In this document: piece by piece, positions 5,237-31,515 of the stretch | How positions within the stretch are numbered: position 1 is the first letter of the stretch | Layout: every line of letters begins with the position of its first letter | From: Patescibacteria group bacterium | GTDB lineage: Bacteria; Patescibacteriota; Minisyncoccia; Phycocordibacterales; DATDWN01 | Assembly (NCBI GenBank): GCA_030917185.1 | Contig: JAUPVF010000050.1 | Coordinates: 1 to 37,776 of the forward strand | DNA length: 37,776 bases | Direction of reading: 5' to 3' | The notes under the pieces: generated by a model | Told to the model about the DNA's origin: nothing | The model's input: only the letters and a program-made list of their open reading frames with translations | The model's database searches: none | Translations under genes and position numbers: made by a program

Positions 5237-5257
5237 AATAAAAATCTCTTTCTCATC

Positions 5258-5340
5258 ATATCTTTTTGAAACACGCGTTCGCGACGGGCTGTCGCGCCGC
5301 TCGGCTCTCGGCTACCCGCCTGCGACGGTTTCAAAAAGAT
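5258..5340 (+). repeat. GC-rich nested palindromic element, copy A
   Basis: ATATCTTTTTGAAAC ... GTTTCAAAAAGAT terminal inverted repeats enclose a GC-rich core. It differs from copies B/C only at six positions inside hairpin 5280-5296. Lies 21 nt after the frr stop. Confidence 0.85.
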
Positions 5341-6492: not shown

Positions 6493-6616
6493 GAAACTCT
6501 CAAATTTGGCGCATTTCTTTGTCGGAATTCAAAAAATGTTTGTCACCGTACATTAAAGTACGGCTCCAAACTTTTTTCTCTCCCTCCGCGAACTGCATCC
6601 AAATTTGAGGGTTTCT
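6492..6616. repeat. 125-bp element bounded by 18-bp inverted repeats (diverged member of the palindromic element family)
   Basis: AGAAACTCTCAAATTTGG (6492-6509) versus the reverse complement of CCAAATTTGAGGGTTTCT (6599-6616): 17 of 18 match. Inner hairpin CCGTAC/GTACGG (6546-6563). Starts on the last base of the rseP stop codon. Confidence 0.7.
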
Positions 6617-6683
6617 TTGTGGCTATATCTGAGCATGGTTATTAATCCTGATTTCTTATTAATGACCTCTGGCGGGTTTTCTT

Positions 6684-6712
6684 TTGCTCAAAAGTCGTTT
6701 TTCCTATATGAT
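6684..6712 (+). promoter_or_regulatory. putative proS promoter TTGCTC-17-TATGAT; the -10 ends 6 nt before the ATG
   Basis: TTGCTC 6684-6689, TATGAT 6707-6712, ATG 6719. The block is duplicated upstream of mreB2. Confidence 0.45.
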
Positions 6713-6718
6713 AAATAA

Positions 6719-7999
6719 ATGAGACAATCACAACTTTTTACAAAAACACGCAAGGAGGCCCCAAGTGATGAGGCCCGCCCGAACGACGGTTCAGTCGGGC
6801 AGGCCTCAAAAAATGCACAATTACTCATTCGTGCAGGGTACATCCAGAAAGAAATGGCTGGAGTATACGACTATCTGCCACTTGGGCTACGAGTGTTCAA
6901 AAAAATAGAAAACATAATTCGTGAGGAAATGGATGTTATTGGTGGGCAGGAGATTTTCATGTCATCACTCCAAGAAAAGGAAACATGGGAAAAAACAAAT
7001 CGATGGGACGATAGTATGGTAGATATTTGGTTCAAAACTAAATTAAAAAATGACACGGAACTTGGTTTGGCGATTACGCATGAGGAACCAATTACTCGGA
7101 TGATTACAAAACATGTGCAGTCACACAAAGACCTGCCTTTTTCTGTCTACCAATTTCAAACAAAATTCAGAAATGAAATCCGTGCCAAAAGTGGCATTAT
7201 GCGTACTCGTGAATTTATTATGAAAGACCTGTATTCTTTTGATAAAGATCAGGAAGGATTGGATGAGTTTTATGGAAAAGCATCAGATGCATATGTACGG
7301 ATTTTTGATAGAGTTGGTTTGGGTGAAAAAACATACAAAACATTTGCTTCTGGTGGAGTTTTTTCTAAATATAGCCATGAGTTTCAGACTATTTGCGATA
7401 CGGGTGAAGATGTGATTTATGTAAATGAAAATAAAAAAATTGCAATTAATAAAGAAGTAAATACAGACGAGGTGTTATCAGACCTTGGTATTTCACGGGA
7501 TGAATTAGTGGAACGAAAAGCGATCGAAGTTGGAAACATTTTCAAACTTGGCACGCGATTTTCTGATGCGCTTGGTTTATTGTACGTTGATGAAAGCGGA
7601 GAGAAAAAACCTGTGGTCATGGGTAGTTACGGGATTGGTCCTGGTAGACTGATGGGTACAATCGTTGAATTGTATTCGGATGATAAGGGGATTGTGTGGC
7701 CCAAAGAAGTCGCACCATTTGCTGTTCATCTTGTTCGGTTGGGCGATAGTGAAGCGGTAGTAAAATTTGCAGATGATTTGTATACAGATATTCGTAAACA
7801 AGGAGTAGAGGTCCTCTATGATGATCGTCCGCTTCGAGCAGGAGAAAAATTTGCTGATTCTGATTTGATTGGTATTCCTGTGCGTTTTGTGGTGAGTGAA
7901 AAAACAGTGGCAGAAGGCAAGGTGGAGGTAAAATTCCGTACAGACAATGACTCGGAGTTGTTAACTGCTGAACAAGCGATGGACAAACTAAAAAACTAA
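6719..7999 (+). CDS. proS: prolyl-tRNA synthetase (short form, too short to carry the bacterial INS editing domain)
   Basis: MRQSQLFTKTRKEAP...NAQLLIRAGYIQKEMAGVYDYLPLG, class II aaRS motifs, anticodon-binding C-terminus. Confidence 0.9.
   Translation: MRQSQLFTKTRKEAPSDEARPNDGSVGQASKNAQLLIRAGYIQKEMAGVYDYLPLGLRVFKKIENIIREEMDVIGGQEIFMSSLQEKETWEKTNRWDDSMVDIWFKTKLKNDTELGLAITHEEPITRMITKHVQSHKDLPFSVYQFQTKFRNEIRAKSGIMRTREFIMKDLYSFDKDQEGLDEFYGKASDAYVRIFDRVGLGEKTYKTFASGGVFSKYSHEFQTICDTGEDVIYVNENKKIAINKEVNTDEVLSDLGISRDELVERKAIEVGNIFKLGTRFSDALGLLYVDESGEKKPVVMGSYGIGPGRLMGTIVELYSDDKGIVWPKEVAPFAVHLVRLGDSEAVVKFADDLYTDIRKQGVEVLYDDRPLRAGEKFADSDLIGIPVRFVVSEKTVAEGKVEVKFRTDNDSELLTAEQAMDKLKN
6770..6807 (+). repeat. 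38-bp GC-rich palindrome inserted in frame in proS (codons 18-30)
   Basis: GAGGCCCGCCCGA (6770-6782) pairs with TCGGGCAGGCCTC (6795-6807), 12 of 13 positions, loop of 12 nt. Shares GAG(G/C)CCCGCCCGAACG with the element core at 31467-31482. Confidence 0.8.
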
Positions 8000-8412: not shown

Positions 8413-8418
8413 TTTTTC

Positions 8419-8458
8419 CCGCACGGGGCGCCCAATGGCGCGCCCCGTGCGGTTTTTT
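8419..8458 (+). terminator. strong intrinsic terminator
   Basis: CCGCACGGGGCG (8419-8430) pairs perfectly with CGCCCCGTGCGG (8441-8452), followed by TTTTTT. Confidence 0.85.
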
Positions 8459-29928: not shown

Positions 29929-30029
29929 CCCCTCTCATATCTTTTTGAAACACGCGTTCGGGCGGGGCTCGCCCGCCGCTCGGCTCTCGGCTACCCGCCT
30001 GCGACGGTTTCAAAAAGATATAAGAGGGG
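29929..30029 (+). repeat. GC-rich nested palindromic element, copy B (core 29937-30021)
   Basis: The core is identical to the reverse complement of copy C. Extra outer arms CCCCTCTC / AAGAGGGG. Lies 10-18 nt after the rmuC stop. Confidence 0.85.
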
Positions 30030-31400: not shown

Positions 31401-31515
31401 TTTTGAGGTTTGATCATATCTTTTTGAAACCGTCGCAGGCGGGTAGCCGAGAGCCGAGCGGCGGGCGAGCCCCGCCCGAACGCGTGTTTCAAAAAGATAT
31501 GTCAAACCCTCAAAA
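31401..31515 (-). repeat. GC-rich nested palindromic element, copy C (core 31416-31500), inverted relative to A and B
   Basis: The core is the exact reverse complement of copy B. Outer arms TTTTGAGGTTTGATC / GTCAAACCCTCAAAA. Lies 16 nt after the dnaB stop (minus-strand operon). Confidence 0.85.

What the first reader, a model, noticed from the sequence alone, without database searches (positions are those of the whole stretch)
6770..6807. In-frame insertion of an element-related GC-rich palindrome into prolyl-tRNA synthetase
Seen in sequence:
- ProS reads ...KEAPSDE-ARPNDGSVGQ-ASKNAQLLIRAG.
- The extra ~10 residues coincide with a 38-bp palindrome: 13-bp arms matching at 12 of 13 positions, and a 12-nt loop.
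- The left arm plus the start of the loop, GAGGCCCGCCCGAACG (6770-6785), matches the element core GAGCCCCGCCCGAACG (31467-31482) at 15 of 16 positions.
Established (from memory): bacterial ProS N-termini normally read about ...P-x-D-x-x-(V/I)-S-x-x-x-Q-L-(L/M)-x-R-A-G without this segment. Rickettsia palindromic elements are a precedent for repeat insertion in frame into essential genes.
Inference: a fragment of the same repeat family has been domesticated or tolerated inside an essential aaRS.
Basis: partly seen in the sequence, partly recalled or inferred. Interest (0 to 1): 0.6.

Follow-up and report, generated by a model that had tools for sequence, protein, structure and literature searches.

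The report
Tiny mobile hairpin inside proS
The only prolyl-tRNA synthetase gene of this ultra-small (CPR) bacterium carries, in frame, one copy of a 27-30-base GC-rich hairpin repeat that is scattered through several bacterial phyla; in-frame hairpin repeats in genes are a known kind of event, but this repeat family turned up in none of the papers I could search.

Summary
Window 6770-6807 is a 38-nt palindrome (13-nt arms, 12/13 paired). It coincides with 10 extra residues (ARPNDGSVGQ, residues 19-28) in ProRS.

About 240 ProRS homologues lack the segment, including a 94%-identical strain whose empty site reads GAG|GCA. The true insert is exactly 30 nt (6773-6802), between codons Glu18 and Ala19.

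It is not a fragment of the window's 86-nt repeat.

The insert is a complete copy of a separate element, GCCCGCCYGAAYGAC-loop-GTCGGGCAG(G):
- It was found in more than 240 loci of Bacteroidota, Planctomycetota, Chlorobiota/Ignavibacteria, Elusimicrobia and CPR.
- Carrier genomes have 1-14 copies, with loop variants specific to each genome.
- About a fifth of copies sit in frame in genes and read A-R-L/P-N-D-x-V-G-Q.
- CPR copies lie in ProRS, LeuRS, DnaE, S5, S11 and TsaD.
- A different variant hit the same ProRS codon boundary in a distant lineage.

The mobilising enzyme is unknown; the RAYT/REPtron and GIY-YIG tests were negative. This is a new member of a known kind (intragenic REP- or RPE-like repeats).

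The parts
6773..6802 (+). The 30-nt insert GCCCGCCCGAACGACGGTTCAGTCGGGCAG. It is one complete copy of the dispersed mini-palindromic element (CC variant, 6-nt loop) and encodes ARPNDGSVGQ, ProRS residues 19-28.
   Evidence: Filled versus empty alleles were aligned at DNA level. The sequence matches the family pattern found in more than 240 loci elsewhere. It is single-copy in this genome.
6770..6807 (+). It is the element's own 9-10-bp imperfect stem, lengthened by the host bases GAG (6770-6772) and CCTC (6804-6807).
   Evidence: The empty allele shows that GAGGC and TC are host sequence.
6719..7999 (+). proS, the only prolyl-tRNA synthetase gene of the genome. It is a bacterial-type enzyme without an INS editing domain (426 aa) and is intact, with all conserved motifs.
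   Evidence: (one match in G000). The AF2 model has mean pLDDT 90.3, and only residues 19-28 fall below 50.
31416..31501 (-). Other copies are at 5256-5340 (+) and 29936-30021 (+). It belongs to a different repeat family that is specific to this CPR family, and it is not the source of the proS insert.

Best explanation
SHOWN. Bases 6773-6802 are one full copy of a very small (27-30 nt) GC-rich imperfect-palindrome repeat, GCCCGCCYGAAYGAC-(2-12 nt loop)-GTCGGGCAG, which is almost always followed by G. The copy sits seamlessly between codons Glu18 and Ala19 of the sole proS gene, with no target duplication beyond 1-4 ambiguous bases and no scar in the empty allele. It keeps the reading frame.

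The site is polymorphic among close strains. Two lineages (91.5% identical to each other in nucleotides) carry an identical insert, and a third, 94.2% identical to the window, has the empty site. The same family is dispersed at 1-14 strict copies per carrier genome, with genome-specific loop variants, which indicates amplification within genomes. It occurs in Bacteroidota, Planctomycetota, Chlorobiota/Ignavibacteria, Elusimicrobia and CPR. A different variant (27 nt, TT type) occupies the identical codon boundary of ProRS in a distant CPR lineage, so that site was hit at least twice.

INFERRED.
- The copy is translated into a 10-residue hydrophilic surface loop, A-R-P-N-D-G-S-V-G-Q, in the linker before helix alpha-1, and the enzyme tolerates it.
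- The element moves as DNA, by precise insertion and excision at N|G sites.
- The most likely agent is an enzyme that recognises a single-stranded hairpin, such as a HUH/Y1 REP- or IS200-type enzyme acting in trans. The responsible enzyme is not identified.
- In streamlined CPR genomes the few surviving copies sit in essential genes. A plausible reason is that only exact excision is viable there, while intergenic copies are deleted.
For: Insertion and its boundaries:
- empty allele GATGAG|GCATCA; filled allele GATGAG|30 nt|GCCTCA.
- Three independent assemblies carry the second filled haplotype and four carry the empty one.
- The window's own protein is recorded on 7 contigs.

Family:
My chance estimate is below 1 hit.
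- The reversed control pattern gave 0 hits in about 570 genomes.
- Flanks of the copies are unrelated to each other, and the element boundaries are sharp.
- Loop variants are genome-specific: TCA in 12 of 14 copies in G444 and TTTA in 8 of 12 in G439.

Translation-level selection:
- 69 of 72 copies inside long ORFs have a length that is a multiple of 3, against 84% overall.
- 47 of the 72 are in sense frame 0.
- Host genes were confirmed by Pfam: S5, DnaE, LeuRS (twice), S11, TsaD, GH2, fucosidase and others.
- All 7 CPR intragenic copies are in the sense orientation.

Recurrent hit in ProRS:
- P0025 (68% identical) carries the 27-nt variant at the same boundary.
- It lies in a separate well-supported clade.
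- Its nearest relatives (79% identical) lack the insert.

Loop location: residues 19-28 have pLDDT below 50 and form a coil between helices H16-19 and H31-38.

Hints of single-strand or replication-linked mobility:
- The top strand lies on the G-rich strand in 58% of loci (p = 0.004).
- The element is co-oriented with neighbouring ORFs in 61% of loci (p = 0.0017).
- Both junctions are seamless.
- G000 encodes an intact IS200-type Y1 transposase.
Against: - No enzyme is linked to the element. No protein family is enriched near the copies.
- None of 16 Y1-transposase genes in 8 carrier genomes has an element-like hairpin within 2 kb.
- Three carriers (G256, G217, G442) have no PF01797 gene at all.
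- Small GIY-YIG genes are never adjacent to copies.
- The termini carry no GTAG or CGTC tag, and no clear 4-5-nt target motif was found. The flanks show only a weak bias: A at -2, G at +1, A at +3.
- The copy is the only one in this 89%-complete genome, so no donor copy is visible.
- The direction of change at proS is not resolved. It could be one gain plus one exact loss, or two gains.
- Translation of the insert and activity of the enzyme are inferred, not observed.
Confidence: 0.78

Rival explanations
1. One reading: the insert is a fragment of the window's 86-nt repeat family (5256-5340, 29936-30021, 31416-31501), captured or domesticated in proS.
For: The 16-mer matches at 15/16. A 12-nt exact match, CCCGCCCGAACG, is reached by only 0.18% of composition-preserving shuffles of the insert. 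In this genome that 11-12-mer occurs only in the 86-nt copies and in proS.
Against: - Five of the 16 bases are host sequence.
- The insert lacks the AT-rich terminal repeats (ATCTTTTTGAAAC) of the 86-nt family and its conserved core, CTCGGCTACCCGCCTGCGA.
- The same 12-mer is present in all 18 distinct CC-variant copies from unrelated genomes.
- The matching hairpin of the 86-nt element is AT-rich in related genomes.
- The two families have different taxonomic ranges.
Confidence: 0.05
2. An ancient ProRS loop inherited vertically and lost many times. On this view the palindromic DNA is incidental.
For: Two distant ProRS lineages carry a related segment at the same position.
Against: - 238 of 241 homologues lack it, including the nearest relatives of both carriers. 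The tree needs at least 2 events and would need many exact losses.
- The two inserts belong to different subfamilies of the element, each of which also circulates in unrelated genes and intergenic DNA.
- A 94%-identical strain has the empty site.
Confidence: 0.03
3. A local mutational origin: a quasi-palindrome created by template switching or snap-back synthesis at the small host palindrome GATGAGGCATC, with no mobile element involved.
For: The empty site contains a 4-bp mini-hairpin, GATG-AGG-CATC, and the insertion point lies in its loop. Host flanks extend the palindrome.
Against: None of the 30 inserted bases can be templated from the local sequence. The 30 nt match the family pattern found in more than 240 loci in other genomes. 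The closest copy differs at 1 base and lies in the LeuRS gene of another CPR genome.
Confidence: 0.02
4. The element was acquired by homologous recombination. Foreign proS DNA already carrying the insert would have replaced the N-terminal segment, so that the element spreads between CPR lineages through conserved genes rather than by transposition.
For: - CPR copies sit only in highly conserved essential genes, where recombination with foreign homologues is feasible.
- The inserts in the two filled haplotypes are 30/30 identical while the gene differs by 8.5%. The chance of this is about 0.07 if the insert diverged at the same rate as the gene.
- The two variable sites just downstream of the insert (alignment positions 86 and 98) group the two filled haplotypes together.
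Against: Site patterns across the gene fit a simple ((W,E),F) tree with no clear recombination block. The distant ProRS carrier has a different variant and diverged flanks. Recombination cannot explain the dispersed copies with unrelated flanks in Bacteroidota.
Confidence: 0.1

Closest known systems
Intragenic REPs: repetitive extragenic palindromes of 20-40 nt found in frame inside ORFs, including aminoacyl-tRNA synthetase, DnaE and repair genes (Di Nocera, De Gregorio & Rocco 2013, PMC3733652; in-frame REPs inside RAYT genes, PMC6006769).
   Same: Both are short GC-rich imperfect hairpins, dispersed and mostly non-coding, with a minority in frame in genes. Both favour replication and translation genes, show presence/absence differences between strains, and occur in clusters, tandems and nested arrangements.
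   Different: This element has no GTAG, GTGG or CGTC terminal tag. No cognate RAYT gene flanked by copies was found. Almost the same 27-mer occurs in at least five phyla, whereas REP families are normally lineage-specific and co-evolve with their RAYT. Copy numbers are low, and the element is single-copy here.
Rickettsia palindromic elements (RPE-1 to RPE-8).
   Same: Palindromic repeats inserted in frame into essential genes of a reduced genome. They are translated as extra surface peptides and tolerated.
   Different: RPEs are about 100-150 bp and restricted to Rickettsia. This element is 27-30 bp and cross-phylum. I recall no sequence similarity, but I did not align them here.
Mobile G+C clusters of yeast mitochondrial genomes (for example Wu & Hao 2015, PMC4478555, cited from an earlier scan note; I did not read the paper).
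   Same: Very short GC-rich palindromic units in an AT-rich genome that insert into genes and into each other.
   Different: The host is an organelle of a different domain of life. There is no sequence relation, and the mobilisation mechanism is also unsettled.
IS200/IS605-family single-strand 'peel and paste' transposition, and its non-autonomous derivatives (PATEs, REPINs).
   Same: Hairpin-based recognition, no target-site duplication, seamless excision, and a strand and orientation bias relative to replication. An IS200-type TnpA is present in this genome (C22:1823-2182).
   Different: Those elements need two subterminal hairpins and a defined 4-5-nt target. Here there is a single hairpin and only a weak flank bias. 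No linkage to a Y1 gene was found.
The 86-nt 'YPAL-like' repeat of this same window
   Same: GC-rich, hairpin-forming and mobile in close strains. It shares the 12-mer CCCGCCCGAACG in this genome.
   Different: It has AT-rich terminal inverted repeats and a conserved core, CTCGGCTACCCGCCTGCGA. It is confined to one CPR family and is never found in coding sequence here.

Membership tests
REP / REPIN-RAYT system | A short (20-40 nt) GC-rich imperfect palindrome, dispersed in multiple copies and mainly extragenic. | tested here: met
   Copies are 26-36 nt long. There are 2-14 strict copies in each of 11 listed Bacteroidota carrier genomes, and about 70-80% of 249 contexts lie outside long ORFs. 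The element is single-copy in G000.
REP / REPIN-RAYT system | A conserved GTAG/GTGG (or CGTC) tetranucleotide at the foot of the hairpin. | tested here: not met
   The termini are GCCCGCC... and ...GGGCAG(G). CGTC arises only when the variable loop begins with G.
REP / REPIN-RAYT system | A cognate Y1 (RAYT) gene flanked by copies of the repeat (a REPtron). | tested here: not met
   None of 16 PF01797 genes in 8 carrier genomes has an element-like hairpin within about 2 kb. Three carriers have no PF01797 gene.
Rickettsia palindromic elements (RPE) | A palindromic repeat of about 100-150 bp, in Rickettsia, inserted in frame into ORFs. | tested here: not met
   In-frame insertion is met, but size (27-30 nt) and host range are not. 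Sequence relatedness was not tested.
86-nt repeat family of this window | Terminal inverted repeats ATCTTTTTGAAAC / GTTTCAAAAAGAT and the conserved core CTCGGCTACCCGCCTGCGA. | tested here: not met
   The insert has neither feature. It shares only a 12-mer that lies in the variable hairpin of that family.
IS200/IS605-derived non-autonomous elements (PATE-like) | No target duplication and seamless excision. | tested here: met
   The filled allele equals the empty allele plus exactly 30 nt, with no scar and only 1-4 nt of positional ambiguity.
IS200/IS605-derived non-autonomous elements (PATE-like) | Left- and right-end hairpins plus a fixed 4-5-nt target 5' of the element. | tested here: not met
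   There is a single hairpin. Flank frequencies show only A at -2 (54-81%), G at +1 (97-100%) and A at +3 (51-59%).
tRNA-lodged GIY-YIG mini-nuclease cassettes (earlier scan notes) | Hairpin copies adjacent to small GIY-YIG genes and to tRNA genes. | tested here: not met
   No GIY-YIG gene lies within 5 kb of any strict copy in 11 genomes. Only 6 of 240 loci have a tRNA within 400 nt, against roughly 2-4 expected by my estimate.

The most novel reading that the evidence does not exclude
The 27-30-nt element is a self-contained micro-transposon of a class not yet characterised. A single imperfect hairpin would be inserted and excised exactly at N|G sites by an enzyme that is not RAYT-linked. 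It would be able to cross phylum boundaries and would be specific enough to hit the same ProRS codon boundary twice. In reduced CPR genomes it would persist by lodging in essential genes, where only exact excision is survivable.
Probability: 0.12. Interest if true: 0.8.

Novelty: new member of a known kind. Interest (0 to 1): 0.48.

Why it matters
In-frame hairpin repeats inside essential genes show how selfish DNA can lengthen proteins without killing them. Here this happens in the sole ProRS of an organism with one of the smallest known genomes.

Three features go beyond the textbook REP picture:
- Essentially the same 27-mer occurs patchily in at least five phyla: about 2% of sampled Bacteroidota species and about 0.5% of Patescibacteria.
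- Two variants hit the same codon boundary of ProRS independently.
- Every CPR copy found inside a gene lies in a core information-processing gene.

If the mobilising activity can be found, cultured carriers such as Maribacter, Pinibacter, Terrimonas and Mesonia would give a tractable system for one of the smallest mobile DNAs.

On the practical side, such inserts create spurious 'lineage-specific loops' in alignments of marker proteins used for CPR phylogeny.

Tried and rejected
- Looked for other copies of the 30-mer or its halves in the own genome, allowing up to 10 mismatches. None were found.
- Rfam scans of the window and of 10 element-rich loci showed nothing over the element.
- Clustered all ORFs of 90 aa or more from 244 loci to find a linked protein family. 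Only common families (ABC-F, sensor kinases, ECF sigma factors) recur; a Y1-like ORF appears in 3 loci and is not adjacent to the element.
- REPtron test around 16 Y1 genes. My first regular expression was faulty and could not match the element itself. I repeated the test with corrected patterns, and it was still negative apart from an unrelated CCTGCCTGCCGGCAGG pair in G447.
- GIY-YIG and tRNA association, suggested by earlier scan notes, was not supported for this family.
- Phage carriage: 1 hit in 2.9 million viral contigs.
- Literature: the 15-mers and the peptide ARLNDKVGQ occur in none of about 8.4 million full texts, and the hits to the 10-mers are unrelated. They are also absent from the supplements of the two REP surveys.
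- A first regex-based fuzzy search timed out and was replaced by a Hamming-distance scan.
- Searching earlier scan notes by sequence returned nothing.
Full report
**1. The observation**

Window 6770-6807 reads GAGGCCCGCCCGA-ACGACGGTTCAG-TCGGGCAGGCCTC. It has 13-nt arms complementary at 12 of 13 positions and a 12-nt loop. As a single strand it folds much better than dinucleotide shuffles: DNA -14.8 kcal/mol (z = -5.4) and RNA -26.4 kcal/mol (z = -5.2), with 0 of 200 shuffles as good.

The palindrome lies in codons 18-30 of an intact 426-aa prolyl-tRNA synthetase gene (6719-7999). This is the only proS match in the 568-kb, 60-contig genome. That genome belongs to a Patescibacteria/CPR bacterium; its homologues are annotated Zambryskibacteria, Paceibacterota and Parcubacteria.

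The 16-mer match to 31467-31482 is 15/16. With up to 2 mismatches the 16-mer occurs genome-wide only in four copies of an 86-nt repeat and in proS.

**2. It is an insertion, with known boundaries**

- All 29 ProRS sequences from the same family and order have ...DE-(V/T/A)SKNA... with a 10-residue gap opposite ARPNDGSVGQ.
- Of 241 database homologues, 238 have the standard spacing.
- The 90%-identity cluster of the window's protein contains a 416-aa member, P0122, that reads KEAPSDEASKNAQ.
- At DNA level the empty allele, seen in four independent assemblies (L032-L035), is GATGAG|GCATCAAAAAAT. The filled alleles are GATGAG|GCCCGCCCGAACGACGGTTCAGTCGGGCAG|GCCTCAAAAAAT; these are the window and three independent assemblies of a second haplotype, L036-L038.

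So exactly 30 nt (6773-6802) lie between codons Glu18 and Ala19. There is no scar, and nothing more than 1-4 nt of positional ambiguity.

The host bases GAG...CCTC merely lengthen the element's own stem.

**3. The dynamics at proS**

- The three haplotypes are 94.2% (window versus empty), 91.5% (window versus second filled) and 91.5% (empty versus second filled) identical in nucleotides.
- Site patterns (68, 32 and 34) fit the tree ((window, empty), second filled). The protein tree gives the same topology.
- This means either one gain followed by one exact loss, or two exact gains of an identical 30-mer. The direction cannot be told.
- The two filled alleles carry 30/30 identical inserts although the gene differs by 8.5%. 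The chance of this is about 0.07 if the insert diverged at the same rate as the gene.

**4. What the insert is**

A second ProRS, P0025, is only 68% identical and carries ADE-ARLNDKVGQ-VSKNA. Its DNA is GAA|GCCCGCCTGAATGACAAAGTCGGGCAG|GTT.

From the two copies I wrote the pattern GCCCGCCYGAAYGACN{0,12}GTCGGGCAG and scanned the public collections.
My rough expectation by chance is below one hit.
- The reversed control pattern gave 0 hits in about 570 genomes.

The 249 distinct contexts have unrelated flanks and sharp element boundaries.
- Lengths are 27 nt in about three quarters, with smaller numbers at 26, 28, 30 and 36 nt.
- The loop is usually NNA.
- The next base is G in 97-100% of copies.

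Among the 80 genome records listed with titles, my count of hosts by title is roughly as follows.

| Host group | Records |
|---|---|
| Bacteroidota (including cultured Pinibacter, Terrimonas, Arenibacter, Zeaxanthinibacter, Mesonia, Maribacter, Zunongwangia) | about 58 |
| Planctomycetota (Scalindua, Brocadiaceae) | 9 |
| CPR | 6 |
| Chlorobiota / Ignavibacteria | 3 |
| Elusimicrobia | 2 |

Prevalence is low and patchy.
- 3 of 150 randomly drawn Bacteroidota genomes carry the element.
- 3 of 401 Patescibacteria genomes carry it, counting the window's own genome.
- Only 1 hit was found in 2.9 million viral contigs.

Carriers have 1-14 strict copies, and the loop variant is genome-specific: TCA in 12 of 14 copies in G444, TTTA in 8 of 12 in G439, ACA in 6 of 6 in G447. 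This points to amplification within genomes.

Copies also occur in tandem (3 x 28 nt in L107, 2 x 36 nt in L171). Many are nested in the loops of other GC-rich hairpin repeats.

No Rfam family covers the element. Neither the 15-mers nor the peptide occur in about 8.4 million full texts.

**5. Behaviour inside genes**

72 of 249 contexts lie in open frames of at least 450 nt.
- 69 of these 72 have a length that is a multiple of three, against 84% overall.
- 47 are in one sense frame and read A-R-(L/P)-N-D-x-V-G-Q.

In the common TT variant the other two sense frames contain TGA. All three antisense frames are open, yet antisense copies are fewer (23, some probably in spurious ORFs).

The coding copies typically sit at ...(D/N/K/E)|G-K..., which looks like a beta-turn context. 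Non-coding copies share only A at -2, G at +1 and A at +3. The G-K bias is therefore probably selection for tolerated sites rather than a DNA target.

Pfam confirms the host genes.
- In CPR genomes: ribosomal proteins S5 and S11, DnaE, LeuRS and TsaD, besides ProRS in two lineages.
- Elsewhere: GH2, alpha-L-fucosidase, a DAO-type oxidoreductase, a BNR protein and another LeuRS.

All seven CPR intragenic copies are in sense orientation and in core information-processing genes.

**6. Effect on ProRS**

An AlphaFold2 model built from a 63-sequence alignment has mean pLDDT 90.3. Residues 19-28 are the only segment below 50, and they form a coil between a short helix (16-19) and helix 31-38.

The gene is under purifying selection: 96-98% amino-acid identity at 91.5-94.2% nucleotide identity. 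It is also the only proS gene, so the enzyme with the insert must work. Translation of the insert is inferred and has not been observed.

**7. Relation to the 86-nt repeat**

That repeat has six copies in the genome, three of them in the window. It has AT-rich terminal inverted repeats and a GC-rich core, with a compensated hairpin variant in two copies.

The insert's longest exact match to it is 12 nt. Only 0.18% of composition shuffles reach that length. However, every one of the 18 distinct CC-variant copies from unrelated genomes has the same 12-mer.

Related copies of the 86-nt family occur in 12 of 24 genomes of the same CPR family and in none of 16 genomes from other families of the order. 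In those relatives the conserved part is CTCGGCTACCCGCCTGCGA, while the hairpin that holds the 12-mer is AT-rich.

The similarity therefore reflects GC-rich stems of the CCCGCC/GGGCGG type, not derivation.

**8. Mechanism**

Shown:
- seamless filled and empty alleles;
- amplification within genomes;
- a recurrent hit at one codon boundary by two variants, which sit in separate well-supported clades;
- a modest strand bias. The top strand lies on the G-rich strand in 58% of loci (p = 0.004), and the element is co-oriented with flanking ORFs in 61% (p = 0.0017). In the window the + strand has positive GC skew.

These features resemble single-strand, hairpin-guided HUH/Y1 transposition (REP/RAYT or IS200/IS605). 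G000 does encode an intact IS200-type TnpA with its own GC hairpins at C22:1823-2182.

The membership tests fail, however:
- there is no GTAG or CGTC tag;
- there is no fixed target motif;
- no copy lies within 2 kb of any of 16 Y1 genes;
- three carriers have no Y1 gene at all.

The GIY-YIG and tRNA link proposed in earlier scan notes for other mini-hairpins is not seen for this family either. The enzyme is therefore unknown.

I put 'mobile REP-like element, translated and tolerated' at about 0.78. The specific HUH route is perhaps 0.3-0.4 within that.

The bias of CPR copies toward essential genes may be survivorship: only exact excision is viable there, while intergenic copies are purged. 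This is inference.

**9. Novelty**

In-frame REPs in ORFs are in print, including in aminoacyl-tRNA synthetase and DnaE genes (PMC3733652; PMC6006769), and so are RPEs. Earlier notes of this scan describe other 20-21-nt cross-phylum hairpin families, and a later check judged that kind already published.

I therefore file this as a new member of a known kind. Three features deserve follow-up: the cross-phylum near-identity of a 27-mer, the repeated hit at one ProRS codon boundary, and the restriction of CPR copies to essential genes.

**10. Limits**

- The census used an exact pattern, so diverged copies and true copy numbers are underestimated.
- ORF calls are mechanical.
- MAG binning errors could misassign some hosts, although the CPR copies sit in CPR-type genes.

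Noticed in passing
window 6530-6695: Compared with both close haplotypes (61-nt rseP-proS spacer), the window has about 165 extra bases upstream of proS. The extra stretch partly duplicates the promoter-like segment CTCAAATTTGG...TTTCCTATATGATAAATAA.
   Followed up: partly
window 5256-5340, 29936-30021, 31416-31501; L309-L313: The 86-nt repeat has relatives in 12 of 24 genomes of the same CPR family. They share the outer AT-rich stem and the core CTCGGCTACCCGCCTGCGA, but the inner hairpin differs (AT-rich in relatives, GC-rich here, with a compensated variant in 2 copies). Two copies in this genome (C27, C4) carry a 72-nt internal extra segment.
   Followed up: partly
genome contig C22:1823-2182 (outside the window): An intact IS200-type Y1 transposase (154-aa ORF, PF01797, E = 1e-35) with GC-rich hairpins on both sides. 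This is notable in a 568-kb genome.
   Followed up: partly
window 8415-8455: A strong GC-rich hairpin, CCCGCACGGGGCGC-CCAATG-GCGCCCCGTGCGG, inside a roughly 600-bp stretch of raised G+C (about 50% against 39%) between proS and mreB.
   Followed up: no
genome contigs C34:123-168 and C34:9433-9478; C32:42-73 and C58:21277-21308: Two pairs of GC-rich 32-46-nt sequences that are exact reverse complements of each other. One pair is 9.3 kb apart on one contig, which could mark the ends of a mobile element. The other pair lies near contig ends.
   Followed up: no
L302 (G447:C9) about 1598-2617: A Y1 transposase with a YIMNQEEHH motif (subclass 1.2-like) is flanked by inverted copies of a 16-nt palindrome, CCTGCCTGCCGGCAGG, inside roughly 33-nt inverted repeats, in a Rikenellaceae MAG that also carries the mini-element.
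   Followed up: partly
L041, L044, L071, L073, L102, L165, L182, L212, L222 and others: Many copies of the mini-element sit at the apex of other widespread hairpin repeats, for example ...GTCATTCCGAGC[element]G.AGTCGAAG...GAATGAC, or between CCCGCCTGACC and GGACGGGCAGG. This indicates nested insertion among several small GC-hairpin families.
   Followed up: no
L018 (G020:C7) ProRS, alignment block 3: Another CPR ProRS has an unrelated insertion of about 15 residues (DDYGKGLEMNPHHSAISCKT region) at a different site, in the loop where other lineages have a Cys-rich insert.
   Followed up: no
L107 2892-2975 and 3040-3124: Three head-to-tail 28-nt copies of the mini-element lie 65 nt from a tRNA-Leu gene.
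   Followed up: partly
G256 and G217 (CPR genomes carrying the element): These 0.6-1.0-Mb genomes hold 6-9 small free-standing GIY-YIG nuclease genes each, whereas G000 has only a UvrC-like one. None is adjacent to the mini-element.
   Followed up: partly
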